A stretch of 64,000 nucleotides of DNA, taken from NCBI GenBank assembly GCA_049968235.1, contig JBMFRC010000004.1, positions 160,001-224,000 of the forward strand, written 5' to 3'. The stretch comes from Candidatus Hydrogenedens sp. (GTDB lineage: Bacteria > Hydrogenedentota > Hydrogenedentia > Hydrogenedentales > Hydrogenedentaceae). The notes beneath the pieces were generated by a model. It was not told the origin of the DNA. It was given only the letters and a program-made list of their open reading frames with translations, and searched no databases. The position numbers and the translations under genes are program-made. This document shows positions 26,107-52,900 of this stretch, one piece after another; positions within the stretch are counted from its first letter, which is position 1; every line of letters starts with the position of its first letter.

Positions 26107-27021
26107 TTATTTAACATTAGCATTTCTTCGGTCAATAAGTATCTCATTATCCGGTTGTGATTTACACTGCATATACAATTGTCTCAATGAATCGAACACG
26201 GATTTTGTCGATATTGTTATATGAGGATTACATAAGAGACCACACAAATAAAGATTAAGCAAAGATTCTTTTTTGTTTTTTGTTGTTTCCATGGATAATT
26301 TATGATTGGAACATATTTCAGGTAATAGTTCTTCCCATGATTTTTTCAAATCCTTTAGGAATACTTCCAAATTTTTTGGGGGTATCAAACACATAAAATG
26401 TCCGTTTCCTATGTGCCCCAATTGGTAGTCTTTCCCAAAATAAGCATTTGCAACGGTTTTGATATGCCTTGCAAAAGTATTGACAATTTTTAATGTATCT
26501 GCATTGGAAAGGGTAGATTGTAAAGAAGGCAAACCAGACAATTCTATATAAACAAAGCCACATTTCTGATGAAGTAAGATGGCTCTTTGTAATTCTAATC
26601 GTATGAAACGAACACTTCCAAGTCCTGTATAGGAATCCACTAGAGGGGTATTTTCTATTGAAGTTGCCAGAGTATTCAGCCGTGAAAGGAGTAGTGATAA
26701 TGAAATAGGTTTTACTAAATAGTCATCTCCCCCTTGTGAGAAACCGTGTTCTATTTCTTCCGGGTCATTCATTGCAGAAAGGAAGATAATCCCTGTATTG
26801 TAAACATCTCTATTAATACGAATTTGTCGGCATAATTCGAAACCGGAATTACGGGGCATCATTACATCAAGTAAGACAATAGTAATTCCATCCCGTTTTA
26901 TTGTATCTACCACATGTTCCGGAGAATTTAATTCGAAACATTGGTAATTTTTTTGTTCTAAGGCATGTTTTAATTGATTTGAAAAACTTATATCATCATC
27001 AACGATAAGTAATTTTACCAA
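26107..27021 (-). CDS. response regulator: REC domain + degenerate GGDEF domain
   Basis: 304 aa. REC (LLIVDDD...LLDVMMP...DDYLVKP). GGDEF-like fold beginning DSYTGLG, but the active-site GG(D/E)EF is replaced by GNGHF. This predicts loss of diguanylate cyclase activity. Confidence 0.7.
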   Translation of the reverse strand: MVKLLIVDDDISFSNQLKHALEQKNYQCFELNSPEHVVDTIKRDGITIVLLDVMMPRNSGFELCRQIRINRDVYNTGIIFLSAMNDPEEIEHGFSQGGDDYLVKPISLSLLLSRLNTLATSIENTPLVDSYTGLGSVRFIRLELQRAILLHQKCGFVYIELSGLPSLQSTLSNADTLKIVNTFARHIKTVANAYFGKDYQLGHIGNGHFMCLIPPKNLEVFLKDLKKSWEELLPEICSNHKLSMETTKNKKESLLNLYLCGLLCNPHITISTKSVFDSLRQLYMQCKSQPDNEILIDRRNANVK

Positions 27022-27187
27022 ATTATGATTCCTGAATTATGTTTTATGAAACCGTTATTAAATATCGTTTATATTCTATTTAAAATTAATGTCGATGAAC
27101 AACTAATTATCTATACCTATTTTTGTATAATATATTTATATCGTTGGTTAATCATAAACCCCAGGAGAAAATATAAATTTTTATTTT

Positions 27188-29722
27188 ATGAATGACGAAG
27201 AGAAAAATAAAGAACCTACTTCTTTAAATTCTCCTGATAACAATATTAATTCTTCATCATCGAATCAGGAGAAAGGGGTTGATGAGGTATTAGACCAATC
27301 CTTTATTGACTCTTTATTTCAAAATGCTCAAAAAGAGGCATCCCCACCTCCCATTGATACTCCATCCCCAGAAAGTTCACCTCAAACTTCTACCCCTGCA
27401 AAGGAGGAAATTCCTCCTAATTTAGCACAGAAAATAGTTGCTCCTCCTAAAAAACAAGATGCAGAAGTGGCATTACTCAGTCAGGATGAAATTGAGGAAT
27501 TGATTGAGTTAGCACGAAAAGAGGATAAAGAACGGCAAAAGAAGAAACAGGAAATATTAGAACAAATCACCAGTAAAGCAGTGGCTCAGCCCAGTCAAAA
27601 ACCTGTTTCTAAGAAGAAAATTAATTTAAAAAAATACCTCATCCCTATTGGTATCAGTCTGATATTAGGACTAACGAGTGGGATATGGACTTATATTTAT
27701 CTCATGAAGAATCGTCTAATTCCTGTGGAAGAGATAGCACCTACATATACGAAAGACCTTTCTACAGCAAAGGAATATGCGAAGATACTTATTGATGACA
27801 AACAATACTTAAACGCAATATATATATTAGAGAGGGCTTTGAAAAATAATCCACAATCTTCCCCTGATAAAGCAGATGCTCAATTCCTTTTAATTAAAGC
27901 GAAATACCTTTCCGGAAGAATAAATCCGGGAACAAAGGAATTTCAAAAGTTCATAGATGAAATAGAAACCGTAACAAAAGAAAATCCTGACCATCCTATG
28001 GCACCTTATGTATTCCTCTGGAAAGGGAAACTTCATGAGGCTGATAATTTTCCATATCCCGCTATAGAAGCGTATGAACGAATCGTTCAAACTTATCCTC
28101 AATTTGAAGGGCGAGATGAGGCTTTGTTTGCATTAAGTCGTCTTGAATTACAGATGAACAACACTGTGAAATCAGCCCAGTGGGGACAGCAATTGATAAA
28201 AGAATTTCCTGCTTCCCCTTATGCATTAGAGGCAAGGTTCAATCTTGCGGAATCATATCGTTTGACAGGATTATTGGAAGATGCGAGAACATTATATATT
28301 CGAATTGCAGATATGGCACCTGACACAGAAATAGGTGCTCGGGCAATTCTCCGTTTATCTGAAATGGCATATAAACAAGGGAGATATGAACAGGCATTAA
28401 TCCCATTAGAAACAAAATTAAATTATATTCGTCAGTTCCAATATAACGATGAAGCATATTTATTGTTAGCAAAAACATATAAGGCACTCGGAAGATTAGA
28501 GGAAGCCAGAACTGCTTTGCAAGATTTACTGTTTTTTTTCCCTGCTTCCGAAGTTCATCCTCATGCATGGGTAGAACTAAGTCAGATATATTACTCCTTA
28601 GGAGATAAAGAAAAAGCATTTCAAACCGCGAATGAGGCGAGTCTTTTATATCCAAACCATCCTGATGTATTGGCAAATAAAGCAGACTTTTTAGCTTTAC
28701 AGGGTAATTCATATGCTTCTGCTATTGCTTATCTTGAAGCAGAAAAAAATGGAGGAATCAAACCATCATATTTACTAAAAGCAGGGCAACTATTAATGAT
28801 AAATTCTCAACTTGAAGAGGCGATAAAAGCATTTGATGAATTGAAGAATCGCTATTATGGGACAAAAGAGGCATTAAAAGGAAGTATTGAAAGAGCAAAA
28901 TGTCTGTATAAATTAGGGAAGTTTTCTTCTGCTGTTTCTTCGCTTGAAGATTTGAAGAAATTAACTCCCGCTACAGAACCTGAATATAAAAGTATATTAC
29001 AGGAATTGACGACGATGTATTTTGAACTTGGTCTTAAAGAAACATCTGCCGAAATTGCAAAAGAGTGGTTCCAAAAAGCGGATACCCCGGAAGAAAAGAT
29101 TAATTCTGCCATGTTCCTGATTAATAATGATAATACAAATATAGTTTATTCCAATCTGTCATCTATTGATTTATCTACCGTTAACAAGGAAAAAACAGTA
29201 AATTTTCTTTATTTGTTATCACAAAAATTATTAACAACGCTTCCCTCTGAAGGATTGGCTCTTTTAGAACAGGTGTATTATCAATATCCTGAATTTAGGT
29301 CATCCGATATCCGCTATCATTTGTTAGAAACATATATCCATACGGAACGAACAACTTCAGCAAGGCGAATTATTCAAGATTGGGAAACAGAACTGGATAC
29401 ACAAAAAGAATCTATTCAGAATTTTATTGATGGAGAAATTTTATGGGGTAATTATATGTTTGAAAGACAAGAATGGGAACCTGCGTTGCAGGCATATTCT
29501 ACTGCTATTGAAATTTCCGAGAAAAATGGGGAACAATTGCAGGGAATACGATTTCATACGGATTGGGCAAAATATCAGAGAGCCAATATTCTTGCTCAAA
29601 CATCTCTGATGGAGGAATCTATAAAAATACTTGATGAGTTGATACGAGCCAAATCAGCATTGACATCTTTAGCCCAGGTAAAACTAGAACAAATTAAACT
29701 TGAAATGATTGCAAAAAAGTAA
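27188..29722 (+). CDS. large membrane-anchored TPR-repeat protein with Pro/Ser-rich N-terminal region
   Basis: 844 aa. Low-complexity N-terminus (SPPPIDTPSPESSPQTSTP). Single TM helix (YLIPIGISLILGLTSGIWTYIYL). At least 15 TPR-like repeats downstream. Confidence 0.6.
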   Translation: MNDEEKNKEPTSLNSPDNNINSSSSNQEKGVDEVLDQSFIDSLFQNAQKEASPPPIDTPSPESSPQTSTPAKEEIPPNLAQKIVAPPKKQDAEVALLSQDEIEELIELARKEDKERQKKKQEILEQITSKAVAQPSQKPVSKKKINLKKYLIPIGISLILGLTSGIWTYIYLMKNRLIPVEEIAPTYTKDLSTAKEYAKILIDDKQYLNAIYILERALKNNPQSSPDKADAQFLLIKAKYLSGRINPGTKEFQKFIDEIETVTKENPDHPMAPYVFLWKGKLHEADNFPYPAIEAYERIVQTYPQFEGRDEALFALSRLELQMNNTVKSAQWGQQLIKEFPASPYALEARFNLAESYRLTGLLEDARTLYIRIADMAPDTEIGARAILRLSEMAYKQGRYEQALIPLETKLNYIRQFQYNDEAYLLLAKTYKALGRLEEARTALQDLLFFFPASEVHPHAWVELSQIYYSLGDKEKAFQTANEASLLYPNHPDVLANKADFLALQGNSYASAIAYLEAEKNGGIKPSYLLKAGQLLMINSQLEEAIKAFDELKNRYYGTKEALKGSIERAKCLYKLGKFSSAVSSLEDLKKLTPATEPEYKSILQELTTMYFELGLKETSAEIAKEWFQKADTPEEKINSAMFLINNDNTNIVYSNLSSIDLSTVNKEKTVNFLYLLSQKLLTTLPSEGLALLEQVYYQYPEFRSSDIRYHLLETYIHTERTTSARRIIQDWETELDTQKESIQNFIDGEILWGNYMFERQEWEPALQAYSTAIEISEKNGEQLQGIRFHTDWAKYQRANILAQTSLMEESIKILDELIRAKSALTSLAQVKLEQIKLEMIAKK

Positions 29723-29734
29723 GAAAGAACAGAG

Positions 29735-30181
29735 ATGACATCCTTTAAAGAGAAACAGTCGCAGAATTTTTTATATTGGTCTCAACGACAACAAGCATGG
29801 CTAAAATCCCAAATAAAATCAGCAGAAAACCTGAAATTGTTGTTAGAAAAAAATAATTTAGATAATGAAATAGAAACGGAAATAAAAAAACATGGAAAAC
29901 AAAATGAGCAATTAAATACATTGATACAAGAATATGATATTTTAAGAAAAGAAATACCCTCTGATATTTTAAAGGAACAAAAGAATCAGGAAATTATTAA
30001 AGGAATAAAAGAACTTATTCAGACATTGATAAAAATTAATGATGAAATATATCAAATAGTGTTAAAACAAAAAGAAAATCTTCAAAAAGAAATGGGTGAC
30101 TTTTTCTCACTAAAAAGTCGGTTTGAAAAATACAATCCACAGGGGAAAAAGTTATCGGAAAATGTAGATTATGATGTCTAA
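29735..30181 (+). CDS. small coiled-coil protein, unknown (translationally coupled to the histidine kinase)
   Basis: 148 aa. Lys/Glu-rich, heptad-like. Its 3' end overlaps the downstream kinase start by 11 nt. Confidence 0.4.
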   Translation: MTSFKEKQSQNFLYWSQRQQAWLKSQIKSAENLKLLLEKNNLDNEIETEIKKHGKQNEQLNTLIQEYDILRKEIPSDILKEQKNQEIIKGIKELIQTLIKINDEIYQIVLKQKENLQKEMGDFFSLKSRFEKYNPQGKKLSENVDYDV

Positions 30182-31343
30182 ACCTACAGAAAAAATGGTT
30201 TCTATTTCTCAGATAGATTTAGAGAACCTTACAAAAGCATTAGAAGAATTTACCAAAACCAGTCAATCATGGGAGCAGGCATATTCATTACTACAAAAAA
30301 GGATTTCCGAACTTAACCATGAATTGGAATTAAAAAATCATGAATTAGCAATGACATCCGAATATTTAGGTAATCTTCTGGAATCTATATCGGATGGTGT
30401 TATTGCAGTAGATCTGGAGGATAAAATAAATCGTTTTAACCGTTCTGCTTCGCTTATTTCGGGATATAAATCTTCGGAAGTTTTAGGCAAAAAATTTTCT
30501 GAAGTTTTTAACCGCCCCTTCTCTATCGAAGAAAATAATGAGAATACTTATCAACTCTGTTCGAAAACAGGGAGGCTCATTCCTATTACAGAACGAAATT
30601 CTTTTATAACAGATTCACATGGAAATGTAATAGGAAAAGTCAAAGTTTTCCAGGATTTAAGTGAAATTCTTGAGCTAAGGGCGCACATTCAACATAAGGA
30701 GAGGTTAGCATTAATAGGAGAAATGTCTGCTACCATTGCTCATGAAATACGCAATCCGTTAGGGGGGATACGCGGATTTGCTTCCTTTCTGGCACAGGAC
30801 TTACCCGAAGATGACCCAAGACAAAGATTTGTAAAAAAGATAATGCAAGGAATCCAGACATTAGAACACACTATCAATGATTTATTAGAGTATGCTCGCC
30901 CTATAGAATTAAAACAGGAAGTAAGACCTTTATGTGAGTTAATTCGTTCCAGTTTAGAATTTCTATCCTATGATAAAAAGAATATATCCATTCTGGTGGA
31001 ATGTCCTCCTGAGATAAAAACTAACTTTGATTTTATCCGCATGAAACAGGTTATCACGAACATTGTTGTAAATGCGGTTCAAAGTATTAGCACACAGGGG
31101 ATAATTAAGATTAAAGGCGAAGTAGAAAATAAATTTGTTCGAATAGAAATAAAAGATAATGGCTGTGGAATAAAACCTGAAATACTACCCAAGATTTTTT
31201 CCCCATTTTTTTCGACAAAAGAAAGGGGAACAGGTTTAGGATTAGCCTTGTGTGCTAAAATTGTAGATGCACATGGAGGACAAATTAAAGCAGAAAGTGC
31301 TGTGGGCGAAGGGACTACAATCACAATATGGTTGCCTTTATAG
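30171..31343 (+). CDS. soluble PAS-domain sensor histidine kinase (NtrB/AtoS-like)
   Basis: 390 aa. No TM helices. PAS region (LESISDGVIAVD...). H-box HEIRNPLGGIRGF. HATPase N, G1 (DNGCGI) and G2 (GTGLGLAL) boxes. Confidence 0.8.
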   Translation: MMSKPTEKMVSISQIDLENLTKALEEFTKTSQSWEQAYSLLQKRISELNHELELKNHELAMTSEYLGNLLESISDGVIAVDLEDKINRFNRSASLISGYKSSEVLGKKFSEVFNRPFSIEENNENTYQLCSKTGRLIPITERNSFITDSHGNVIGKVKVFQDLSEILELRAHIQHKERLALIGEMSATIAHEIRNPLGGIRGFASFLAQDLPEDDPRQRFVKKIMQGIQTLEHTINDLLEYARPIELKQEVRPLCELIRSSLEFLSYDKKNISILVECPPEIKTNFDFIRMKQVITNIVVNAVQSISTQGIIKIKGEVENKFVRIEIKDNGCGIKPEILPKIFSPFFSTKERGTGLGLALCAKIVDAHGGQIKAESAVGEGTTITIWLPL

Positions 31344-31375
31344 GAAGAATTCAAATAGTTCAGAAGGGATAAATT

Positions 31376-32767
31376 ATGCCAAAAGCAAAAATTCTTGTAA
31401 TTGACGATGAGCCTCTCATGCGTGAATTTATCGAGGAAGCCATGACTCGTGCTGGCTATCGTGTGGTGAGTTCTGGAAGTGGCGCAGAAGGGGTAGAATT
31501 GATTAAAACACAACCCTTTGATTTGATAATAACGGACTTAAAAATGGAACCGGTTGATGGTATGGAGGTGTTACAAGAAAGTGTTAAGGTCTCCCCGGAG
31601 ATACCTGTTATCATAATGACTGCTTACGCAACAATAGAAACCGCCATCAGGACATTAAAAGCAGGTGCAGTAGATTATCTTGTAAAGCCTTTTACTCCGG
31701 AGGCTATTGAAATTGCAGTAAAACGGGCTCTGGACAAAGTCAAAATGAACGCAGAAAATAAGTACCTCCGTTCGGAACTGAATGCATATTTAGGTCCTCC
31801 TGAAATTATTGGAAAAAGTAAAATAATGCAAGAATTGCATGAGAAAATAAACAAGATTGCTGATTCTCGTTCCACCGTGCTTATTCGTGGAGAAACTGGA
31901 GTAGGAAAAGAGTTAGTGGCACGGACGATTCATGTCTTAAGTCCTCGAAGAGAAAAACCTTTTATAAAGGTAAATTGTGCCGCTCTTTCTTCAGGTATTC
32001 TTGAAAGTGAACTTTTCGGGCATGAACGAGGAGCCTTCACTGGTGCTTATGAGAAAAAGATTGGTCGTTTTGAACTTGCCAATGGTGGGTCCTTATTGCT
32101 GGATGAAATAAGTGAGATTCATGTAGACCTTCAGCCCAAACTCCTTCGTGCATTACAGGAACGAGAAATTGAAAGGGTGGGCGGAACAGAGACTATATCT
32201 GTAGATGTTCGTATTATTGCCACGTCCAATAGAAACCTTGAAGAAGCCATTGAGAAACATTCTTTCCGTCAGGATTTGTTTTACCGCTTAAATGTTATAA
32301 CGATTTATGTGCCACCCCTTCGCGAAAGGAAAGAAGACATTCCCGAATTGGCAAATTATTTCTTGAAACGGTTTTCTAAAGAAAATGGGAGAAATGTTGA
32401 TACCATTACCCCCAAGGCGATGGAATATTTTATGGAATATGACTGGCCTGGAAATGTTCGTGAATTGCAAAACATAATAGAACGCGCTGTGGTCCTTGCC
32501 GGTGATAAGAAAACTCTATGTATAAAGGATTTTGAGTTTCTTAAAATAAGGAGTCATAGTGAACATAATGTTTCGCAGATGCAGACAGGTATTACCTTGG
32601 CAGAAATGGAAAAAAATATCATTCTCAAGACATTAGAACATTGTGGAGGTAATAAAACGAAATCGGCTGAGGTTTTAGGCATTAGTGTGCGAACACTTAG
32701 AAATAAATTGCATGAATATGGATTGGTTAAACCGCAGAAAAATCGAATGGAACGCATTCCAAAATAG
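31376..32767 (+). CDS. sigma-54-dependent response regulator (NtrC/AtoC family enhancer-binding protein)
   Basis: 463 aa. REC. AAA+ sigma-54 interaction domain with Walker A GETGVGKE and the GAFTGA motif (ESELFGHERGAFTGA). C-terminal Fis-type HTH. Confidence 0.9.
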   Translation: MPKAKILVIDDEPLMREFIEEAMTRAGYRVVSSGSGAEGVELIKTQPFDLIITDLKMEPVDGMEVLQESVKVSPEIPVIIMTAYATIETAIRTLKAGAVDYLVKPFTPEAIEIAVKRALDKVKMNAENKYLRSELNAYLGPPEIIGKSKIMQELHEKINKIADSRSTVLIRGETGVGKELVARTIHVLSPRREKPFIKVNCAALSSGILESELFGHERGAFTGAYEKKIGRFELANGGSLLLDEISEIHVDLQPKLLRALQEREIERVGGTETISVDVRIIATSNRNLEEAIEKHSFRQDLFYRLNVITIYVPPLRERKEDIPELANYFLKRFSKENGRNVDTITPKAMEYFMEYDWPGNVRELQNIIERAVVLAGDKKTLCIKDFEFLKIRSHSEHNVSQMQTGITLAEMEKNIILKTLEHCGGNKTKSAEVLGISVRTLRNKLHEYGLVKPQKNRMERIPK

Positions 32768-32811
32768 AAATGGAATAAAAAATATCCTATCTTGAAATAT
32801 AATTATAAAGT

Positions 32812-34995
32812 ATGAAAAAAAAAGAGACTATATTTTTTCTTTTAATTATTCTTTTTGCGATTGTAATACGGGTTATATATTTCTACTATATCTCACAACA
32901 ACCTGAATTTTCACACCCAATTATAGATCCTCAATTTAACGATTACTGGGCACATAAAATATTGTATCAGGGTAATTATCCATCTCCAACGGGAGATGAC
33001 CCTATGATAGAAAATACACCTTATGGAAGACCGCCAGGTTATCCTTTTCTTCTAGCTTTTATATACTTTCTTTTCGGAGATAATTATAATTCTCCGCGGT
33101 TAATACAATTTTTTGTGGGAATTGTAAATGTTTTTTTTATGTATTATTTTGTTTCGAGAATTTTTGTGAGTAAAAAAGCAGGATTAGTTTCTGCATTTTT
33201 AATGGCTATCCTTTGGGAACCTATTTATTTTGAAGGGGAAATAAACTATCCTGTATGGGTAATCTCACTTACAATAGTTCTTTTATTTACCTCATTACGA
33301 TATCTGCAAATAAAAACAACAAAATTTGTGATTCTTTCGGGCTTTTTACTAGGAATTATCGCTCTCTTTAGACCCAATGGACTTTTATTGTTACCTATGT
33401 ATGTTGGAATTGTGTTTCATATATTTGGGAAACGGAACTTCAAGAAGGCTCTTGCTCATTGCATTCTCTTTTCTGTATCCGTATTCTTAATAATATCTCC
33501 TGTTTTTATTAGAAACTATATAGTCAGTAATGATTTTTTTTTGATTTCGTGTTTTGGGGGGATAAATACATACATAGGTAACAATGCCCAGTCAACGGGG
33601 GACAGTCCTACGGTCCCGAATATAATTCATTTGTGTGGAGTTGATAATTGGGATTGTTTTAATTATCGATTATTAGTAAAAGGTCTTGGGATAAAACAAG
33701 AGGGTCGTTACTATTCATTCAAGGAGGCTTCTCAGTTCTTTTATAAAAAGGTTTATGAGTATTGGAAAAAAGAACCTATCTCTGCAATCAAATTAACGGC
33801 TCGTAAATTCTTTTTATTTTGGGGTCCTGCTATAGTTTCTGATGGAAAAGTTATTTATCATGACAGGGAAGCAACATTTCTTCGTTTATTGCCCGGTTTT
33901 CCTTTTCTGGTGGGATTATCTTTTTACTTCTTAATTTTGTTTATTCGACAGAGAAATCAATTACCTCCGGAACTTAAAACGCTTCTATTATTTATTTTTA
34001 CATGGAGTTTTGTTTATTCGTTATCTGTTATTCCTTTTTTTGTTTCAGAACGATACCGAATCCCTATTATTCCACCTTTATGCATTATAGGGGGAATAGG
34101 TACCGTTTTATTTCTTAGTAATACTGGTAATCAAAATAAGTTAAACAAGTTTAAACAAATTATTATTTGTTTACTATGCCTTACCCTTGTTTATAAGACA
34201 CCTGTAAAATATGAACCGGATACACCTCGATGGTTTTACCATAAAGCCATTGTTTCCTATAAATCTCAAAATGAAAAAGATGCGGTTTACTATGCTAATA
34301 AAGCCATTTCAAAGAACCCCAATTATTCAGAAGTTTATGCCTTTCTTGGTATAATCTCTCTTAATCATCATGAGTTTAAAGAGGCAGAAAATTATTGTTT
34401 AAAAGCATTAGAAAAAAATCCTGATTATGCTATGGCAAATAATAATTTAGGTTATATTATGGAATTAGAAAAGAAATTTGACCTTGCAGAAAAGTATTAC
34501 TATAAAGCATGTGAATTAAGTCCTGTATATACCCTGGCATGGATAAACCTCGGGAGAATGTATTTGTATTATCATAACCAGATTAACTTAGCAAAAGATT
34601 GTTTCGTAAAAGTAACTGAGTTAGACCCCAACTCATGGGTTGGATGGTTTCACTTAGGGAATGTATATATACAAATGGGAGAATACTCCTCAGCGGAGAA
34701 ATTTCTAACAAAATCTCTTTCATTAAATCCGGAAAATGCCCTTATTCATAATAATTTTGGTTTTTTATATATACAGAGAAAACAGTATGAAAAAGCGATA
34801 GAGTTTTTAAAAACAGCATTAGAAAAAGAGCCACAATTTACAGATGCTATGTTTAATCTCGGGAATGCGTTTAAAGAAATGAAGCAATATGAAGAGGCAG
34901 AATATTGGTATAAAAAAGTTTTAGAAATTGACCCACAATTTACAGATGCAGTAGATAAAATCAATGAAATAAATACAAATAAAAAAACTAACTAA
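32812..34995 (+). CDS. membrane GT-C glycosyltransferase (PMT/ArnT/TMTC-like) fused to C-terminal TPR repeats, subfamily A
   Basis: 727 aa. About 12 TM helices in the N-terminal 440 aa, with an acidic first-loop motif (PQFNDYWAHK) and RPPGYPFLLA. C-terminal about 270 aa of canonical TPRs (AFLGIISLNHHEFKEAENYCLKALEKNPDY...). The architecture parallels eukaryotic TMTC O-mannosyltransferases. Confidence 0.65.
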   Translation: MKKKETIFFLLIILFAIVIRVIYFYYISQQPEFSHPIIDPQFNDYWAHKILYQGNYPSPTGDDPMIENTPYGRPPGYPFLLAFIYFLFGDNYNSPRLIQFFVGIVNVFFMYYFVSRIFVSKKAGLVSAFLMAILWEPIYFEGEINYPVWVISLTIVLLFTSLRYLQIKTTKFVILSGFLLGIIALFRPNGLLLLPMYVGIVFHIFGKRNFKKALAHCILFSVSVFLIISPVFIRNYIVSNDFFLISCFGGINTYIGNNAQSTGDSPTVPNIIHLCGVDNWDCFNYRLLVKGLGIKQEGRYYSFKEASQFFYKKVYEYWKKEPISAIKLTARKFFLFWGPAIVSDGKVIYHDREATFLRLLPGFPFLVGLSFYFLILFIRQRNQLPPELKTLLLFIFTWSFVYSLSVIPFFVSERYRIPIIPPLCIIGGIGTVLFLSNTGNQNKLNKFKQIIICLLCLTLVYKTPVKYEPDTPRWFYHKAIVSYKSQNEKDAVYYANKAISKNPNYSEVYAFLGIISLNHHEFKEAENYCLKALEKNPDYAMANNNLGYIMELEKKFDLAEKYYYKACELSPVYTLAWINLGRMYLYYHNQINLAKDCFVKVTELDPNSWVGWFHLGNVYIQMGEYSSAEKFLTKSLSLNPENALIHNNFGFLYIQRKQYEKAIEFLKTALEKEPQFTDAMFNLGNAFKEMKQYEEAEYWYKKVLEIDPQFTDAVDKINEINTNKKTN

Positions 34996-35008
34996 ATATT
35001 AAAAGAAT

Positions 35009-37654
35009 ATGGATAACGAAAATAAAAAAAATAAAGATTGGGTAATTCTCTCGTGGATACTTTTGTTTGCGTTCTGTTTTCGGATTATTTATCTCTGGCA
35101 ATTAGTAGATGCTCCAGACTTTATTGCACTTCGGCAGGACTTGGATGTTCAGGATTATCAGGCAAGAGCGATACTATCCGGAGATTGGACTGTTCGGGAA
35201 GGGGTTTCTGACCCACATATTCCAACGACGCCGTATTATCGACCTCCGGGTTACCCATACTTCCTTGCAGTTGTATATTATTTTTTTGACGGTTCCTATC
35301 TGGCACCGCGATTCATTCATTTTTTTCTTGGACTCGTGCATATTGTCCTAATATATTTTTTAGCCAGAATTATATTTAATAGAATCGCAGGTTTATGTGC
35401 ATCTTTTCTTGTAGCCACTTATTGGGCTTTTATTTATTATGAAGGAGAAGTAAACGACCCTGCTTTATTTGTTTTTCTTGTCCCCTGTATATTATTTCTG
35501 ATTTATTATGCTGTTACTAAGGACTTTATCTTGTATTCTTTTTTCTCAGGCTTATGTATTGGTATATATGCCATCATGAGACCTAATATTCTATCATTTA
35601 TTCCTTTTTTATCATTATGGATTTTGTTCTTTTTTTATAAGCAGAAAAAACTATTTAAGAGTTTCTTTCATATATTTTTTTTGATAATTGCAATTTTTAC
35701 TGTGATAACTCCGGTTACAGTTCGGAATTATCTCGTATCGGGTGAATTTGTGCCTATCTCTACTTATTTTGGGGAGAATCTATTGATAGGAAATAGTGAG
35801 GATGCTGATGGAGTAACGCCGTGGTTGCCTTACCTTCAGGAATTAGAAGGAACGGGTAATTGGTCTGTATGGCATTATGATAATGTTGTAAAGGGTTTAG
35901 GGAAATTTTTGGGGAGAGAAGTTTCACATTCCGAAGCATCAAATATTTTTGCTAAAATGGCTATAAATTATATTATTCATCACCCATGGCAAACATTTTT
36001 ACTCACATGCAAAAAAGCTATTTTATTCTGGAGTCCACAAGAAATTACAGAGAACAAAGTTGTAGAGGGGGAAAGACAACATTATATACCTCTGAAATAT
36101 ATGCCTCGATTTCCTATTGTCCTGAGTACATTTTTATTAGGTTTGTTTTTTTTGATAAAAAATATATTTTTCAATAAGACATTTAAAGATACAAATATAA
36201 ATATTTATTTTCTAACACTGGTATTGTTGTTTATATTTACATATTTTGCTTCATTTCTTCCCTTTTTTGTAAATGCAAGGGCTCGTGTTCCGATATTGGG
36301 ATTGATGTTCATCATCGGCGGATACACATTTTCAGAAATTCGGTATTTATTTGTTAAGAGAAGAATAACTCCCGCTCTCATAAGTATTTTTGTTTTAGTA
36401 ATACTTTTTCTCATAACTCATATTGATATTATTCCCTATAAACCGGATATGTGCCGTTGGCATTATGACCGTGCTGACTCTTATCTCCGTGTAGGTCGTG
36501 TTGATGAAGCATTACAGGAAGTACATGCTCTTATGTCTCGTCCGGAACGTCCTATGACTTACATGCCATTCCGGCTGGGACATGCACTTGCAAAGTTAAA
36601 TTATTCCGAATTAGCTATAGATTTATTACGACTGGCACTTAGTCCTGACCCTTCAGAACAGCCTTCTATGTATAGAGAAGATATTTACTATCATATCGGT
36701 GCTTTATTTATGAAATTAAAAAGATATGATGAAGCCATCAAAGAATTTGAAAATGCTTTATCTTTAAATCCCAAAGACCCGAGAGTTCATAATGACCTAG
36801 GTGTCATTTACAAAGAACGCAATGACTTAGTAAAAGCCGAACAAGAATATAAATATGCTATTGATACAGAACCAGAATTTAATCTTGCTATAGCAAACTT
36901 GACAGAATTGTATATTCAACAGAAAAAATACGCTGAAGCGATTGAATTGCTGGGAAATAGCCTAAAATTACAGCCTCAAAATACAGAGTTACTTTATAAT
37001 TTAGGATTTGTTTATCATAATTCGGGACAACTTGAAAAAGCACTTTCCTATTACCAACAAGTATTATCTCATGATAGTAAGGAACCTAATACACTTAATA
37101 ATATGGCTATGATTTATTTAGAAAAAAATGACCTGGAAAAAGCCAAAAATACCCTGTTATGGTGTATATGCAAGAATTCCTATTTTACACTCGCATATGC
37201 GAATATGGGGGACATTTTATATTCAGAAAACCAACTACCAAAAGCCCTATATTATTATGATAAAGGGCTTGAAACGAATTATGAACATATAGGACTTTGC
37301 GCTGCGTTAGCCTTACTTTATACAGAAATGGGTAATGCCGAGAAAGGGATTGTGGAATTAATGGATGTTTTAAAAAAACATCCAGAGTCCACCAATTTAT
37401 GGTTTGCTCTGGGAAATATCTATAAAAATAGTAATCAAAATAATGAGGCTATTGGTGCTTATAATAAAGTATTAGATATAGATAGTTCTTATACATCGGC
37501 GTATAGAAATTTGATGGAAATTTATTTAAATAAAGGAGATGTTAATAAAACACTGGAAATCTTTGAAAAAGCGAAACAAAACATTAAAGATTCTGAACAA
37601 ATAGAATATTTATCCTCTCTTATCCTGGAAAAACAAGGAAATACCAATAAATGA
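35009..37654 (+). CDS. membrane GT-C glycosyltransferase (PMT/ArnT/TMTC-like) fused to C-terminal TPR repeats, subfamily A paralog
   Basis: 881 aa. Paralogous to the upstream gene (VQDYQARAIL...YYRPPGYPYFLAVVYYFF). Multiple TM helices. C-terminal about 400 aa of TPRs. Stop overlaps the downstream GT2 start (ATGA at 37651-37654). Confidence 0.65.
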   Translation: MDNENKKNKDWVILSWILLFAFCFRIIYLWQLVDAPDFIALRQDLDVQDYQARAILSGDWTVREGVSDPHIPTTPYYRPPGYPYFLAVVYYFFDGSYLAPRFIHFFLGLVHIVLIYFLARIIFNRIAGLCASFLVATYWAFIYYEGEVNDPALFVFLVPCILFLIYYAVTKDFILYSFFSGLCIGIYAIMRPNILSFIPFLSLWILFFFYKQKKLFKSFFHIFFLIIAIFTVITPVTVRNYLVSGEFVPISTYFGENLLIGNSEDADGVTPWLPYLQELEGTGNWSVWHYDNVVKGLGKFLGREVSHSEASNIFAKMAINYIIHHPWQTFLLTCKKAILFWSPQEITENKVVEGERQHYIPLKYMPRFPIVLSTFLLGLFFLIKNIFFNKTFKDTNINIYFLTLVLLFIFTYFASFLPFFVNARARVPILGLMFIIGGYTFSEIRYLFVKRRITPALISIFVLVILFLITHIDIIPYKPDMCRWHYDRADSYLRVGRVDEALQEVHALMSRPERPMTYMPFRLGHALAKLNYSELAIDLLRLALSPDPSEQPSMYREDIYYHIGALFMKLKRYDEAIKEFENALSLNPKDPRVHNDLGVIYKERNDLVKAEQEYKYAIDTEPEFNLAIANLTELYIQQKKYAEAIELLGNSLKLQPQNTELLYNLGFVYHNSGQLEKALSYYQQVLSHDSKEPNTLNNMAMIYLEKNDLEKAKNTLLWCICKNSYFTLAYANMGDILYSENQLPKALYYYDKGLETNYEHIGLCAALALLYTEMGNAEKGIVELMDVLKKHPESTNLWFALGNIYKNSNQNNEAIGAYNKVLDIDSSYTSAYRNLMEIYLNKGDVNKTLEIFEKAKQNIKDSEQIEYLSSLILEKQGNTNK

Positions 37655-38802
37655 CACATTGTGATGAAATAGAACTAAGCGTTGTATTACCTTGTTTGAA
37701 TGAAGAACGGACTATTGGACAATGTGTACAGAAAACACAAAAGGTTTTCGATAAATATCATATTAAAGGTGAAATTATTGTCGCAGATAATAATTCTACG
37801 GATAGTTCCTCATCAATTGCGGAACAAGCAGGTGCGAAGGTAGTCAAGGTAATTACTCCTGGATACGGGAATACTCTTCGAAACGGTATAAAAGAAGCAA
37901 AAGGGAAATATATAATCTTTTTTGATTCTGATTTATCCTATGACCCTGAGGATATTCCTCAAATATTAGAGAAATTACGAGAAGGTTATCCTATTGTTCT
38001 GGGGTCTAGGAAAAAAGGAACGATTGATAGAGGCTCTATGCCATGGTTACATAGATATATAGGCACTCCGATAATGACTTTACTTGCGAATATTTTTTTT
38101 AAGGCACATATAACGGATATTAATTCGGGTATGCGTGGTATGTCCCGAAAAGTATTTGATGAATTAGATTTACATTCGGAAGGCATGGAATTTGCTTCTG
38201 AAATGATAGCAAAAGCACATTGGACCCAAACTAAAATAGCGGAAGTTCCTATTCATTTTCACTGTGACCAGAGGGGAAGGCGTCCACATTTACATTCTGT
38301 TCGTGATGGATGGAGACATTTACAACTTATGTTTCATTATTGTTCTATTAATTGGTTTCTTATACCGGGTTTTATATTGTTATTTTTTTCATACCTTGTA
38401 TTTTTTATTCTGCCTCAGTATATGGATATTTATACATCCTTTTTTATTTCTTTACTAACCAACATTATTGCAACCCAAATTTTATTGATTGGAGTCATTG
38501 CTCAGGGTAGAGTTCGTGGTTCAAAGTTTAGATACATTCCATCAAAATATCTCCTTTTTTTATCCCGAATAATCAAAGTCGAAAAGGGTATGTTTTTGGG
38601 TTTAGGGATATGTTTTTTAGGCATGTTTTTAATGCTTTATACTCTTCGTTCAGGAATAAACATGCCAGATATAACTATAAAAATATTTTTTGGGGGTATT
38701 CTATGTTTTGTTCAGGGGGTTCAGGTTTTATTTAGTTCCATTTTAATCGGGCTGTTTGGAATTCGTGTTTCAGAAGAGGAAGAATTTTTTAGAAAATCTT
38801 AG
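37651..38802 (+). CDS. GT2 polyprenyl-phosphate glycosyltransferase (DPM1/ArnC/GtrB-like) with C-terminal TM helices
   Basis: 383 aa. GT-A N-terminus (LSVVLPCLNEERTI, DSD...YDPED). Four C-terminal hydrophobic helices. This is the architecture of lipid-phosphate-sugar donor synthases that feed GT-C enzymes. Confidence 0.8.
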   Translation: MTHCDEIELSVVLPCLNEERTIGQCVQKTQKVFDKYHIKGEIIVADNNSTDSSSSIAEQAGAKVVKVITPGYGNTLRNGIKEAKGKYIIFFDSDLSYDPEDIPQILEKLREGYPIVLGSRKKGTIDRGSMPWLHRYIGTPIMTLLANIFFKAHITDINSGMRGMSRKVFDELDLHSEGMEFASEMIAKAHWTQTKIAEVPIHFHCDQRGRRPHLHSVRDGWRHLQLMFHYCSINWFLIPGFILLFFSYLVFFILPQYMDIYTSFFISLLTNIIATQILLIGVIAQGRVRGSKFRYIPSKYLLFLSRIIKVEKGMFLGLGICFLGMFLMLYTLRSGINMPDITIKIFFGGILCFVQGVQVLFSSILIGLFGIRVSEEEEFFRKS

Positions 38803-38817
38803 AGTTATAATAAAGAT

Positions 38818-40281
38818 ATGAAACATGTTGTATTTGTAATGCCACCATATCCTTATTCTCGTTCCATTGGACAGGAGGAAGGAAAAAGGCAAATTGGGTT
38901 AATGCCGCCTTTAGGTGTTGGGTATCTTACTGCATACTTAGAGCGGACAGGGAAATACCAATGTTATTTTGTCGATGCAGTTGCGGAGAGGTTATCTATT
39001 GAGGAAACTGTTTCTCGTATTCTATCATTCGAACCGGATGTAATTGGAATTTCATCTTTTACGACTTTTCTTCTCAATACTTCATATCAACTTGCACGAA
39101 GATTAAAAGAAGAATGTCCTTCGATTCCATTGTTAATGGGAGGTCCTCACACTACTTCTTTCGGGGAACAGGTGTTGAAAGACTGTCCGTATATTGATTA
39201 TGTCATTCCGGGAGATGCTGAAGTTCCTCTTTTAGAGTTATTAGAAAAGATTTTTTGTGGAGATATACCGGATAAGGTAAAAGGCATCATTTATAAAAAT
39301 GAAAAAGATGAAATCGTAGATACGGGCTGTTCTATCCCTGTAGATGATATTGATACTCTACCTTTCCCCTCACGACACATTTATAACCATGAGTTATATG
39401 AGCCTTTACCGAGTTTAAGTCCCAAACGCCCTGCCATGTCGATGATTACAGCACGGGGTTGTCCATGGGCACGATGTAAATTTTGTTATCAGGGAGGGAA
39501 ATATGCATCTCCATTTCGTCGTCGGTCTCCGGAAAATGTTGTGGCAGAATTAAAATACCTTATTGAAAAATATAATGTAAAAAATATTGTATTCTGGGAT
39601 GATAATTTTTGTATCTTTCCTGAATGGATACATAAATTTTGCTCCCTTATAAAACAGGGGAAAATAAAATTAGATTGGTCTGTTTTATCGCGTGTAAATA
39701 CAGTAACACCGGAAATGTTAAATGAAATGGCAGAAGTAGGTTGTTACAGTATTCAATTTGGTATTGAATCCGGAAATGAGGAAATACTTAAACTTATTCG
39801 AAAAGGTCACACATTAGAACAATGTCGAAATGCAGTCCGCTGGGCAAAATCCGCTGGTATGGAGACAAGGGCTTTCTTTGTTTTGGGTTTTCCTACGGAG
39901 ACCCCAGCAATGAGTGAAGAGACTATTCGTTTTGCATGTGAATTAAATATCGATTATGTTGTTTTCTTTTCGTATTATGTAGCACCCGGAACACTTCTTG
40001 CCGAGATTGCTATGAGAGAAGGGCAGTGTTTTGAATTTATAGGACAACATTTACCTTCTTACCTTCCTAATACCTATCCTGATTTGGAGACATTAACAAA
40101 GAAAGTACAATCCGCCTATCGAAGATATTACCTCAGACCTCGATATTTCGCTCGAACTATTACAAGAACGATTCGTCGTCCCCATCATTTGAAAAATCAA
40201 ATAAAGGCATTTAATTATTGGCTTGGATTGAGTTTAAAAAAATGGACTCACAACAAAAATTCAACAGTTAACATAACCTAA
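38818..40281 (+). CDS. B12-binding domain radical SAM protein (class B rSAM)
   Basis: 487 aa. N-terminal cobalamin-binding Rossmann region (DVIGISSFTTF...LLMGGPHTT). Radical SAM Cys cluster (RGCPWARCKFCYQG), then the TIM-barrel core. Confidence 0.8.
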   Translation: MKHVVFVMPPYPYSRSIGQEEGKRQIGLMPPLGVGYLTAYLERTGKYQCYFVDAVAERLSIEETVSRILSFEPDVIGISSFTTFLLNTSYQLARRLKEECPSIPLLMGGPHTTSFGEQVLKDCPYIDYVIPGDAEVPLLELLEKIFCGDIPDKVKGIIYKNEKDEIVDTGCSIPVDDIDTLPFPSRHIYNHELYEPLPSLSPKRPAMSMITARGCPWARCKFCYQGGKYASPFRRRSPENVVAELKYLIEKYNVKNIVFWDDNFCIFPEWIHKFCSLIKQGKIKLDWSVLSRVNTVTPEMLNEMAEVGCYSIQFGIESGNEEILKLIRKGHTLEQCRNAVRWAKSAGMETRAFFVLGFPTETPAMSEETIRFACELNIDYVVFFSYYVAPGTLLAEIAMREGQCFEFIGQHLPSYLPNTYPDLETLTKKVQSAYRRYYLRPRYFARTITRTIRRPHHLKNQIKAFNYWLGLSLKKWTHNKNSTVNIT

Positions 40282-40297
40282 AAATAAAGGATAAACT

Positions 40298-41767: not shown

Positions 41768-41783
41768 TTAAGGAGGTATAACT

Positions 41784-52617: not shown

Positions 52618-52900
52618 ATATCTTCGACCTATAAGAAATTGGACATAGATAGTAAACGCAGACCTATAACAGAGGGGGAAACATAATGCCAGAAAAGGTA
52701 TTCGAGTATATAATAAACAGGCATAGTGGCAGGGTCATAAAGAGGATTTAAGAAAAGGAATTCCTTTAATGACCCAGCATTTATATGAACTAAACTGGAA
52801 TACTCATCCCACCACCCTGATTCATCTGAAGTTTTATATATACAAATAACAAAAGCCAATAAAATAATAAGCAAACAAAAAACAAACACTTGTATATTAT
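52618..52900. repeat. direct repeat copy B (inside the chimeric pseudogene)
   Basis: See copy A. The two copies have the same orientation and lie about 7.8 kb apart. They bracket the IS remnant, two GT-C paralogs and a B12-rSAM gene. Confidence 0.7.

What the first reader, a model, noticed from the sequence alone, without database searches (positions are those of the whole stretch)
26107..32767. Regulatory block immediately upstream of the glycan island: degenerate-GGDEF response regulator, giant TPR membrane protein, coiled-coil protein, soluble PAS kinase, sigma-54 activator
The response regulator retains REC and the GGDEF fold but has GNGHF in place of GGEEF. This predicts a c-di-GMP binder or scaffold rather than a cyclase. 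It is divergently transcribed from an 844-aa membrane-anchored TPR protein. That gene is followed by a small coiled-coil ORF translationally coupled to a cytoplasmic PAS histidine kinase and an NtrC-type enhancer-binding protein. The activator ends 45 nt before the first GT-C/TPR gene.

This arrangement suggests sigma-54/two-component control of the island. I could not find a convincing GG-N10-GC promoter by eye.
Basis: partly seen in the sequence, partly recalled or inferred. Interest (0 to 1): 0.5.

Follow-up and report, generated by a model that had tools for sequence, protein, structure and literature searches.

The report
Two-component regulators preceding a glycan operon
The five regulator-type genes are real and conserved in uncultured Hydrogenedens bacteria, but the sequence suggests they share one transcript with the neighbouring sugar-transferase genes rather than switching them on through sigma-54, so this is a fairly ordinary, lineage-specific signalling cluster.

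Summary
All five genes exist at the stated coordinates with the stated domains. The window comes from a Candidatus Hydrogenedens MAG.

The response regulator has an intact receiver plus a true GGDEF fold (AF2 pLDDT 92; best PDB matches WspR, DgcR, PleD). GNGHF replaces GGEEF, and the metal- and GTP-binding residues are gone. The RxxD I-site is also absent in all 26 family members. A dead cyclase is supported; a c-di-GMP receptor is not.

Sigma-54 control of the island is not supported:
- No intergenic region of the island contains even GG-N10-GC.
- The best PWM score in the window is at shuffle level.
- One sister lineage keeps the regulator and the island but lacks the TPR/coiled-coil/kinase/activator cassette.
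- A distant lineage keeps only the TPR, helical-protein and kinase genes, next to cell-wall genes.

A conserved extended -10 (TGTATAAT) upstream of the TPR gene, gaps of 44 nt or less (7 nt in one relative) and no terminators point to one sigma-70 operon. It would run from 27188 to 42857.

One new lead: the cytoplasmic tail of the TPR protein carries conserved FliM-N-like peptides (LSQDEIEELI). Distant orthologs have up to 8 copies.

Interest is low to moderate.

The parts
26107..27021 (-). Orphan response regulator: REC domain plus a pseudo-GGDEF (palm) domain. First gene of a co-directional run: GH29 fucosidase, a TrpD-like gene, then oxidoreductases.
   Evidence: The ORF is. REC scores 78 bits. 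The AF2 model has pLDDT 92.4 and pTM 0.90. The top 15 Foldseek PDB hits are all REC-GGDEF cyclases: WspR 3bre at 2e-19, DgcR 6zxb at 4e-18, and PleD. The gene order is conserved in L001, L004, L009 and L018.
26662..27021 (-). REC domain (aa 1-120) with the phospho-acceptor set D9, D10, D52, S82, Y101 and K104.
   Evidence: Pfam maps REC to residues 5-115. These residues are kept in all 60 aligned sequences.
26122..26634 (-). Pseudo-GGDEF domain (aa ~130-300). 'YIELSGLPSLQS' replaces 'DxDxFKxxND'.
   Evidence: Based on alignments A1 and A4 and the profile alignment to PleD. There is no PF00990 hit at E<=0.01.
26395..26409 (-). GNGHF (aa 205-209) in the position of the GG[D/E]EF A-site. The family pattern is G[NKGS]G[HY]F.
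   Evidence: The His at position 4 is kept (Tyr in 1 of 26 members) down to about 30% overall identity.
27022..27187 (.). Divergent intergenic region of 166 nt.
   Evidence: Sequence, alignment A3. No GG-N10-GC on either strand.
27124..27131 (+). Extended -10 element TGTATAAT. Likely the sigma-70-type promoter of the TPR operon.
   Evidence: 'TTTTTGTATAATAT' is identical in the window and in L011, L012, L013 and L014. This is a consensus match only; there are no transcript data.
27096..27105 (+). Conserved TGAACAACTA element upstream of the -10. Function unknown; it may be an operator.
   Evidence: 'GAACAACT' is conserved in four of the five cassette-bearing loci in A3 (window, L011, L012, L014); L013 has TAACAACT.
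27188..29722 (+). Single-pass membrane protein of 844 aa. It has a cytoplasmic low-complexity tail, a membrane segment at aa 152-170, and about 670 aa of YbgF/BamD-type TPR, inferred to be periplasmic.
   Evidence: Orthologs occur only in Hydrogenedentes (18 clusters; 6 species representatives).
27290..27319 (+). Tail motif 1, LDQSFIDSLF (aa 35-44).
   Evidence: Conserved in 8 of the 9 Hydrogenedens-type orthologs.
27473..27505 (+). Tail motif 2, LLSQDEIEELI (aa 96-106). It resembles the CheY-binding peptide at the FliM N-terminus, LSQAEIDALL.
   Evidence: L96, L97 and Q99 are invariant in 11 orthologs. There are 4 copies in P0137 and 8 in P0138. The same pattern gives 1 other hit in 21,272 aa of window ORFs. 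The FliM_N sequence is from 10.1101/781468.
29735..30181 (+). Three-helix protein of 148 aa whose stop overlaps the kinase start by 11 nt.
   Evidence: AF2 pLDDT 81, with helices at 4-39, 44-73 and 82-133. No PDB match at E<=0.001. FliT and FlgN hits are sub-threshold. There are 18 clusters, all from Hydrogenedentes or unnamed metagenome contigs. In every locus examined it sits between the TPR and kinase genes.
30171..31343 (+). Soluble histidine kinase: N-terminal helix, PAS, HisKA, HATPase_c.
   Evidence: Identity to the window is 93% in L011 and 58% in L009.
31376..32767 (+). NtrC-type sigma-54 enhancer-binding response regulator: REC, AAA+ with GAFTGA, HTH_8.
   Evidence: Identity to the window is 94% in L011 and 71% in L009.
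32768..32811 (+). 44-nt spacer before the first GT-C/TPR gene. No promoter-like or sigma-54-like element.
   Evidence: The equivalent spacer is 7 nt in L018 and 37 nt in L009.
32812..42857 (+). Downstream co-directional genes: GT-C/TPR x2, GT2, B12-radical SAM, a 489-aa unknown and an alpha/beta hydrolase. Probably the same transcription unit.
   Evidence: Gaps are 16 nt or less or overlapping. No terminator-like site lies between genes.

Best explanation
The block consists of two separate things that sit side by side because of inherited gene order in the genus Candidatus Hydrogenedens.

(1) A clade-specific signalling module.
- It has a single-pass TPR membrane protein, a small three-helix protein whose gene overlaps the start of a soluble PAS histidine kinase, and in this lineage the kinase's cognate NtrC-type activator.
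- The conserved core is TPR protein, helical protein and kinase.
- I infer that the periplasmic TPR domain is the sensor the soluble kinase lacks. The cytoplasmic tail of the TPR protein and the helical protein would couple it to the kinase. The kinase would then phosphorylate the activator.
- The activator would act on sigma-54 promoters that lie outside this window.
- The module is transcribed from a conserved sigma-70-type extended -10 promoter at 27124-27131. It probably forms one long operon (27188-42857) with the GT-C/TPR glycosylation genes.
- The regulators are therefore co-expressed with the island rather than being its sigma-54 switch.

(2) An orphan response regulator on the other strand.
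- Its GGDEF-derived output domain has lost the catalytic site, the GTP and metal ligands and the c-di-GMP I-site.
- It keeps a conserved GxGHF / E160 / DRR surface.
- I infer that it acts by phosphorylation-dependent protein contacts, or binds some other ligand.
- It heads the fucosidase/TrpD-like gene run, not the island.

Shown: gene anatomy, folds, residue losses, conservation and indel pattern, absence of sigma-54 promoter signatures, and the conserved -10 element.
Inferred: co-transcription, sensor coupling, remote targets of the activator, and the RR output mode.
For: Anatomy.

Synteny. The full arrangement (RR divergent from TPR, helical protein, kinase, activator, GT-C x2, GT2, rSAM) is conserved in L004/L014, L009/L015, L011, L012, L013 and L018. 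TPR identity runs from 85% down to 47%.

Cassette loss in L001-L003.
- These loci keep the RR and the whole island but lack all four cassette genes.
- By identity they nest between L004 and L009. RR/GT-C1/GT-C2/GT2 identities are 66/63/75/74 for L004, 57/58/66/72 for L001 and 41/47/59/61 for L009.
- The cassette was therefore lost there while the island stayed.

Core triad in L010. TPR (29-31% identity), a 148-aa helical protein and the PAS kinase follow a dcw cluster. There is no activator, RR or island.

Restricted distribution. The TPR and helical-protein families contain only 18 clusters each; every one that carries a source name is Hydrogenedens/Hydrogenedentes.

No sigma-54 promoter.
- PWM best score is 14.4 of a possible 19.8 and lies inside a gene. 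Shuffles give a mean best of 14.8 and a maximum of 17.8.
- There are zero GG-N10-GC in the island intergenic regions. There are also none upstream of GT-C1 in L009 and L011-L014.
- By eye there is none in the L001 RR/GT-C spacer.

Operon structure.
- The extended -10 'TTTTTGTATAATAT' is conserved in five loci.
- Gaps are 44 nt or less, and 7 nt between activator and GT-C in L018.
- No terminator-like site lies between genes.

RR.
- GGDEF fold.
- A-site, ligands and I-site lost in all 26 family members, REC residues kept.
- Distant RR homologs sit in unrelated contexts.
Against: - There are no transcript data. The promoter and terminator scans are consensus matches only.
- TGGCAC-N5-TTGCW matches with 2 mismatches are somewhat more frequent than in shuffles: 29 against 18.5 +/- 4.1. 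All lie inside genes.
- Two intragenic sigma-54-like sites are conserved in position: one in GT2 at 38181 and one in the rSAM gene at 39987. The L001 version of the second is TGGAACACTTCTTGCA. They could be internal promoters rather than coding constraint.
- Wherever the activator exists it lies directly upstream of the GT-C genes, which also fits a functional link.
- Loss of the cassette in L001-type genomes could instead be relocation. These are MAGs, and only species representatives were scanned.
- The periplasmic location of the TPR domain rests on one borderline hydrophobic segment and the positive-inside rule.
- Nothing shows that the TPR protein, the helical protein and the kinase touch each other.
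Confidence: 0.5

Rival explanations
1. The PAS kinase and NtrC-type activator directly switch on the glycan island from a sigma-54 promoter in or near the island.
For: - The activator is complete, with an intact GAFTGA motif, and is highly conserved.
- It lies immediately upstream of the GT-C genes in every lineage that has it.
- Two conserved intragenic sigma-54-like matches exist, at 38181 and 39987.
Against: - No GG-N10-GC occurs in any island intergenic region, nor upstream of GT-C1 in five orthologous loci.
- The best PWM score is at shuffle level.
- The island persists without the cassette in L001-L003, and its upstream spacer there also lacks GG-N10-GC.
- There is a 7-nt gap between activator and GT-C in L018.
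- The intragenic matches encode conserved peptides (GMEFA, GTLLA). In the window, the synonymous-site differences weaken the match to the consensus.
Confidence: 0.1
2. The RR is a c-di-GMP receptor like PopA or PelD, using its degenerate GGDEF domain.
For: - It has a GGDEF fold with a dead A-site.
- Most degenerate GGDEF-only proteins retain the I-site and may act as effectors (PMC2952852).
Against: - There is no RxxD five residues upstream of the A-site, and none within 20 residues, in any of 26 family members.
- The active-looking sister group (GGDDF) also lacks RxxD at that position.
Confidence: 0.08
3. There is no functional connection at all. The cassette and the RR are just syntenic neighbours of the island within one genus, and both regulate unrelated genes elsewhere.
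For: - The whole 25-kb neighbourhood is collinear across the genus, from YceD, AhpC and DUF1667 through TrpD-like, fucosidase and RR to the cassette and island.
- The cassette can be absent.
- The core triad occurs next to dcw genes in L010.
- Distant RR homologs have unrelated neighbours.
Against: - Tight spacing, no terminators and a single conserved promoter argue for co-transcription with the island. That implies at least co-expression.
- Both the sensor protein and the GT-C enzymes carry TPR domains, inferred to face the periplasm, so a shared envelope role is plausible.
Confidence: 0.25
4. The pseudo-GGDEF domain is not dead. It has gained a new function: a new ligand or a new catalytic activity built on the conserved His.
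For: G-x-G-H-F, H203, E160 and the C-terminal D-R-R are conserved down to about 30% overall identity. This is not the pattern of a decaying site.
Against: There is no precedent tested here and no ligand prediction. The conservation could equally reflect a protein-contact surface or fold stability.
Confidence: 0.15

Closest known systems
REC-GGDEF diguanylate cyclases (PleD, WspR, DgcR)
   Same: Same two-domain architecture and fold. They are the best structural matches (3bre 2e-19, 6zxb 4e-18, PleD 4e-16). The REC phospho-acceptor residues are intact.
   Different: GNGHF replaces GG[D/E]EF. The DxD...N...D ligands are replaced, and there is no RxxD I-site. There is no Pfam GGDEF hit at E<=0.01, and the NCBIfam DgcR score is 47.7 against a cut-off of 500.
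PopA-type degenerate GGDEF response regulators (c-di-GMP effectors)
   Same: A receiver plus a catalytically dead GGDEF domain (PMC2952852).
   Different: PopA works through an intact I-site. Here the I-site is absent in the whole family.
Kinase plus NtrC-type activator pairs: AtoS/AtoC and ZraS/ZraR by score; FlgS/FlgR, FleS/FleR and FlrB/FlrC by architecture (the latter from my own knowledge)
   Same: PAS-HisKA-HATPase kinase next to a REC-AAA+(GAFTGA)-HTH_8 activator. The best NCBIfam similarities are AtoS (301.6 bits) and AtoC (478.4 bits).
   Different: All scores are below the family cut-offs (646 and 714), so there is no orthology. No sigma-54 promoter was found nearby. The pair is preceded by a clade-specific TPR membrane protein and a helical protein.
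PrsK/PrsR/PrsT of PEP-CTERM/exosortase polysaccharide loci
   Same: The same idea: a TPR protein, a histidine kinase and a sigma-54 response regulator beside envelope-glycan genes.
   Different: Scores are far below the cut-offs: PrsT 66.9 against 312, PrsK 100.9 against 300, PrsR 404 against 503. No exosortase was detected among the island ORFs.
CpoB/YbgF and BamD periplasmic TPR proteins
   Same: The TPR repeats are of this type. TIGR02795 scores 95.7 against a cut-off of 90.1, and YfiO/BamD also hits.
   Different: The score is summed over four repeated stretches of an 844-aa protein. This protein has an N-terminal cytoplasmic tail and a membrane anchor, not a signal peptide or lipoprotein architecture.
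FliM N-terminal CheY-binding peptide (EIDAL motif)
   Same: LSQDEIEELI and LDQSFIDSLF in the tail resemble MGDSILSQAEIDALL. Copies in distant orthologs, such as LSQAEIERLL and LNQSSIDALL, match at 7-8 of 10 positions.
   Different: These are in a non-flagellar TPR membrane protein, in 2-8 copies. No profile detects the similarity, and binding is untested.

Membership tests
GGDEF diguanylate cyclase | GGDEF (palm) fold | tested here: met
   AF2 pLDDT 92.4. The top 15 Foldseek PDB hits are REC-GGDEF cyclases aligned over about 300 or more columns.
GGDEF diguanylate cyclase | GG[D/E]EF A-site | tested here: not met
   GNGHF at aa 205-209 aligns with GGEEF of PleD. The family pattern is G[NKGS]G[HY]F.
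GGDEF diguanylate cyclase | Metal and GTP ligands (DxDxFKxxND...GD block) | tested here: not met
   'YIELSGLPSLQSTLSNADTLK' stands in place of 'LIDIDFFKKINDTFGHDIGDE'.
GGDEF diguanylate cyclase | Pfam PF00990 above the gathering score | tested here: not met
   No PF00990 hit at E<=0.01. The precomputed Pfam for P0001-P0026 lists no PF00990: only REC, plus a weak PF23198 in three of them.
I-site c-di-GMP effector (PopA-like) | RxxD five residues upstream of the A-site | tested here: not met
   No RxxD within 20 residues upstream in any of 26 family members. The criterion is from PMC2952852.
Response regulator receiver | REC domain with the acidic pocket, phospho-Asp, Ser/Thr and Lys | tested here: met
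   PF00072 scores 78.1 bits against a cut-off of 30.2. D9, D10, D52, S82, Y101 and K104 are conserved.
NtrC-family bacterial enhancer-binding protein | REC + AAA+ sigma-54 interaction domain with GAFTGA + HTH_8 | tested here: met
   PF00158 at 6.8e-70, PF00072 at 2.3e-29 and PF02954 at 7.7e-16. GAFTGA is present, and conserved in orthologs.
NtrC-family bacterial enhancer-binding protein | A sigma-54 (-24 GG / -12 GC) target promoter at the adjacent operon | tested here: not met
   No intergenic GG-N10-GC, and PWM scores are at shuffle level.
NtrC-family bacterial enhancer-binding protein | rpoN present in the genome | not testable with these tools
An indirect hint is a good sigma-54-like site upstream of a pilin-like gene in the related locus L010.
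HisKA-type sensor histidine kinase | HisKA with H-box plus HATPase_c | tested here: met
   PF00512 at 3.3e-16, PF02518 at 3.2e-28 and PAS at 3.1e-9. No membrane segment.
PrsK/PrsR/PrsT (PEP-CTERM system regulators) | NCBIfam equivalog scores above cut-off | tested here: not met
   66.9 against 312.2, 100.9 against 300, and 404.4 against 502.6.
FliT/FlgN flagellar chaperones | Pfam score above the gathering score, or a structural match | tested here: not met
   FliT scores 22.0 against 29.5. Four of 7 orthologs hit FliT weakly and one hits FlgN. No Foldseek hit at E<=0.001.
CpoB/YbgF | TIGR02795 above cut-off with CpoB architecture | tested here: inconclusive
   95.7 against 90.1, but summed over 4 stretches in an 844-aa membrane-anchored protein.
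FliM_N-type CheY-binding peptide | Binding to the alpha4-beta5-alpha5 face of a phosphorylated receiver | not testable with these tools
   There is motif resemblance and copy-number expansion only. Profile scans of the tails find nothing.

The most novel reading that the evidence does not exclude
The cytoplasmic tail of the TPR membrane protein is an array of FliM-N/CheZ-C-like peptides: 2 copies here and up to 8 in distant orthologs. In this reading the array acts as a membrane docking platform. It would hold receiver domains (the divergent pseudo-GGDEF regulator and/or the sigma-54 activator), or the three-helix protein and the soluble kinase. The TPR protein, helical protein and kinase would then form a previously undescribed three-component envelope sensor. 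It would re-use the flagellar CheY-binding motif outside any flagellar context.
Probability: 0.15. Interest if true: 0.6.

Novelty: new member of a known kind. Interest (0 to 1): 0.3.

Why it matters
The result corrects a tempting annotation shortcut. An enhancer-binding protein next to a glycan island was read as sigma-54 control of that island. Comparative loci show the two are separable, and the sequence lacks the promoter that model needs.

It also defines two things:
- A small Hydrogenedentes-specific signalling triad: TPR membrane protein, three-helix protein and soluble PAS kinase.
- A receiver/pseudo-GGDEF family that has lost both the catalytic and the inhibitory c-di-GMP sites while keeping a conserved GxGHF surface.

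Both are candidates for non-enzymatic signalling outputs in an uncultured phylum. If the FliM-like tail peptides really dock receiver domains, that would be a new use of a well-known motif. At present that is only a lead.

Tried and rejected
- Sigma-54 promoter search, done three ways: consensus with up to 2 mismatches, a PWM with shuffles on the window and on 339 kb of related loci, and the bare GG-N10-GC in intergenic regions and orthologous spacers. Nothing credible turned up at the island. The only good intergenic site lies in L010, upstream of a pilin-like gene.
- Conserved intragenic matches at 38181 and 39987. I attribute these to coding constraint: they encode the conserved peptides GMEFA and GTLLA, and the differences lie at synonymous sites.
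- PEP-CTERM PrsK/R/T membership. Rejected on NCBIfam cut-offs.
- A flagellar reading (FliT/FlgN-like protein, EIDAL-like motifs, soluble kinase plus activator). There are no flagellar genes in the window, the FliT/FlgN hits are sub-threshold and there is no structural match.
- Profile scan of the TPR tails against NCBIfam at E<=10. No FliM, FliN or CheZ hit.
- Rfam scan of the whole window. No family found.
- Repeat scan of the two key spacers. Nothing beyond chance-level short repeats.
- Literature search for Hydrogenedentes with sigma-54. No papers.
- Whether L001-type genomes carry the cassette elsewhere. The genome-contig scan found orthologs in only six species representatives, none of the L001 type. 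MAG incompleteness, and uncertainty over which assemblies serve as representatives, leave this open.
- Testing peptide-receiver docking by structure prediction.


Full report
**Observation**

- Response regulator (RR): 26107-27021 (-), 304 aa, TTG start with an AGGA Shine-Dalgarno.
- TPR protein: 27188-29722 (+), 844 aa.
- Helical ORF: 29735-30181 (+), 148 aa.
- Kinase: 30171-31343 (+), 390 aa.
- Activator: 31376-32767 (+), 463 aa.

The first GT-C/TPR gene starts at 32812. The spacings are:
- 166 nt between the divergent RR and TPR genes.
- 12 nt from TPR to the helical ORF.
- An 11-nt overlap between the helical ORF and the kinase (ATGATGTCTAA).
- 32 nt from the kinase to the activator.
- 44 nt from the activator to GT-C.

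Pfam and NCBIfam give these domains:
- RR: REC only.
- 844-aa protein: many TPR families, of YbgF/BamD type.
- Kinase: PAS, HisKA and HATPase_c.
- Activator: REC, Sigma54_activat, AAA lid and HTH_8.

Hydropathy shows one borderline membrane segment in the TPR protein (aa 152-170). It is preceded by a Lys-rich stretch. The kinase has no membrane segment. The window is from a Candidatus Hydrogenedens MAG: P0121 and P0170 are 100% identical NCBI entries on a 254-kb contig.

**The response regulator**

Pfam does not detect a GGDEF domain. The family consists of 26 clusters, with full-length alignment down to 29% identity. It aligns end to end with REC-GGDEF proteins.

An AF2 model built on 60 sequences is confident (pLDDT 92.4, pTM 0.90). 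Its 15 best PDB matches are all REC-GGDEF cyclases: WspR 3bre at 2e-19, DgcR 6zxb at 4e-18, and PleD. The GGDEF fold is therefore real.

A profile alignment to PleD gives two key correspondences:
- GNGHF (aa 205-209) lies on GGEEF.
- 'YIELSGLPSLQS...' lies on 'LIDIDFFKKIND...GD'.

So the A-site acids and the metal and guanine ligands are replaced. The substitution is not random decay. G[NKGS]G[HY]F, H203, E160 and a C-terminal D-R-R are kept across the family.

The I-site criterion is RxxD five residues upstream, or within a relaxed 20-residue window (PMC2952852). It fails in all 26 members. The REC phospho-acceptor residues are intact in all.

The verdict on the RR: it is a phosphorylatable regulator with a non-cyclase output domain that lacks the I-site.

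Two sister groups were seen:
- REC-'GGDDF' proteins with intact ligand motifs.
- A 312-aa 'GG[APT]DF' group.

**Comparative loci**

These are the most informative evidence.

- The full arrangement recurs in L004/L014, L009/L015, L011 (Ca. H. terephthalaticus), L012, L013 and L018.
- L001-L003 keep the RR, the fucosidase and TrpD-like run, and the whole island (GT-C/TPR x2, GT2, B12-rSAM, 489 aa, hydrolase).
  - There the RR is directly divergent from the first GT-C gene, and all four cassette genes are missing.
  - Identities of shared proteins place this lineage between L004 and L009, both of which have the cassette.
  - Loss in the L001 lineage is therefore the parsimonious reading.
- L010 is a distant GC-rich relative.
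  - The TPR protein (29-31% identity), a 148-aa helical protein and the PAS kinase sit directly after FtsI-MurE-MurF-MraY-MurD-FtsW.
  - There is no activator, RR or island.
- Distant RR homologs (30-33% identity) have unrelated neighbours.

The conserved unit is thus TPR protein, helical protein and kinase. The activator and the island are lineage-specific associates, and the RR is independent of both. The TPR and helical-protein families have only 18 clusters each; all that carry a source name are Hydrogenedens/Hydrogenedentes.

**Sigma-54 control of the island**

- The consensus search with up to 2 mismatches gives 29 matches against 18.5 +/- 4.1 in shuffles. All 29 are inside genes and all carry 2 mismatches.
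- A PWM gives a best score of 14.4 of a possible 19.8, inside the GT2 gene. The mean best score of shuffles is 14.8 and the maximum is 17.8. None of the top 30 hits is intergenic.
- The bare GG-N10-GC is absent in several places:
  - on both strands, from every intergenic region between 27022 and 50773, with 30-nt margins;
  - from about 180 nt upstream of GT-C1 in L009 and L011-L014;
  - by eye, from the 306-nt RR/GT-C spacer of L001.
- The PWM does find a good site, TGGCACGCCGATTGCC, 99 nt upstream of a pilin-like gene in L010. So the method works on DNA of this phylum.
- Two intragenic matches are conserved in position, at 38181 and 39987. They encode the conserved peptides GMEFA and GTLLA. 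They differ from their orthologs at synonymous sites in a way that weakens the match in the window.

**Promoter and operon**

'TTTTTGTATAATAT' is an extended -10 (TGTATAAT at 27124-27131). It is identical upstream of the TPR gene in five loci. A conserved TGAACAACTA lies 18 nt upstream of it.

From 27188 to 42857 there are ten co-directional genes. Their gaps are 44 nt or less, or they overlap. No terminator-like site lies between genes. In L018 the activator and the first GT-C gene are 7 nt apart. The simplest reading is one sigma-70 operon in which the regulators are co-expressed with the glycosylation genes.

**The helical protein and the TPR tail**

The 148-aa protein models as three long helices (pLDDT 81). 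It has no significant PDB match. Its FliT and FlgN hits are sub-threshold.

The cytoplasmic tail of the TPR protein contains two short conserved peptides in otherwise variable low-complexity sequence:
- LDQSFIDSLF (aa 35-44).
- LLSQDEIEELI (aa 96-106; L96, L97 and Q99 invariant).

Distant orthologs have 4 copies (P0137) and 8 copies (P0138), for example LSQAEIERLL and LNQSSIDALL. All lie N-terminal to the membrane segment. The same pattern occurs once in 21,272 aa of other window ORFs.

The peptides resemble the CheY-binding N-terminus of FliM, MGDSILSQAEIDALL (10.1101/781468; PMC6946799). Profile scans find nothing, and binding could not be tested. I treat this as a lead, not a finding.

**Comparison with known systems**

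- The RR has the architecture of PleD, WspR and DgcR. It fails three of the four defining tests of a cyclase, and it fails the I-site test of PopA-like effectors.
- The kinase and activator are ordinary members of the HisKA kinase and NtrC-type EBP families. They are closest by score to AtoS/AtoC, but below every equivalog cut-off.
- PrsK/R/T of PEP-CTERM loci is the nearest conceptual analogue (TPR protein, kinase and sigma-54 regulator beside glycan genes). Membership fails on scores.

**Verdict**

The block is a lineage-specific but conventional signalling cluster. It most likely shares an operon with the island.

Noticed in passing
L010:16608-16623 (-), with the gene at L010:16084-16509 (-): A good sigma-54-type site, TGGCACGCCGATTGCC, lies 99 nt upstream of a prepilin-type (N_methyl) gene. 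It is about 1.1 kb from the TPR/helical/kinase triad of a distant Hydrogenedentes contig. In that contig the triad follows the dcw cell-wall cluster.
   Followed up: partly
window 24646-26091 (-); L008:11244-13592: The RR gene is followed 15 nt later by a GH29 alpha-L-fucosidase, an arrangement conserved in L001, L004, L009 and L018. A 33%-identical RR homolog in L008 is followed by a GH95 fucosidase. This may be a recurring link between this RR family and fucosidases, or it may be coincidence.
   Followed up: partly
alignment A4 (proteins P0027-P0100): The nearest relatives with Pfam GGDEF hits form a REC-'GGDDF' group. Their DLDxFKxYNDxYGFxxGD motif is intact, none has RxxD five residues upstream of the A-site, and they end in a C-terminal DRR. 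A separate 312-aa group has GG[APT]DF. Neither was characterised here.
   Followed up: no
window 38181-38196 (+) and 39987-40002 (+); L009:20989-21004; L001:2453-2468 (-): Sigma-54-like matches inside the GT2 and B12-rSAM genes are conserved in position across loci. The L001 version, TGGAACACTTCTTGCA, is one mismatch from the consensus. They encode the conserved peptides GMEFA and GTLLA. This is probably coding constraint, but internal promoters are not excluded.
   Followed up: partly
window 52629-52889 (-), 53099-53401 (-), 45377-45667 (+): Gene debris in the two large ORF-poor gaps of the island:
- an 86-aa ORF that is a truncated copy of the N-terminus of the 737-aa membrane protein at 42859-45072;
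- a 100-aa ORF that by eye (not scanned) looks like the N-terminal part of a B12-binding rSAM enzyme;
- a 96-aa ORF that looks like a transposase or integrase remnant.
Together these suggest past rearrangement.
   Followed up: no
window 27163-27190: The Shine-Dalgarno AGGAG of the TPR gene lies about 20 nt from its ATG. This unusually long spacing looks conserved in L011 and L014.
   Followed up: no
window 27096-27105: A conserved TGAACAACTA element lies 18 nt upstream of the extended -10 in cassette-bearing loci. It may be an operator for an unknown regulator.
   Followed up: no
window 40298-41767, 42859-45072, 45937-48261, 53452-54624: Four sizeable island ORFs (489, 737, 774 and 390 aa) have no Pfam hit at E<=1e-4. 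The 737- and 774-aa proteins look like multi-pass membrane proteins with helical C-termini, similar to the neighbouring PMT_2 protein at 48221-50470.
   Followed up: no
window 2091-3188 (-): A DisA-type diadenylate cyclase (DAC plus DisA linker) sits next to RadA. The genome therefore has c-di-AMP signalling. No intact GGDEF, EAL or HD-GYP gene was seen among the window ORFs that were scanned.
   Followed up: no
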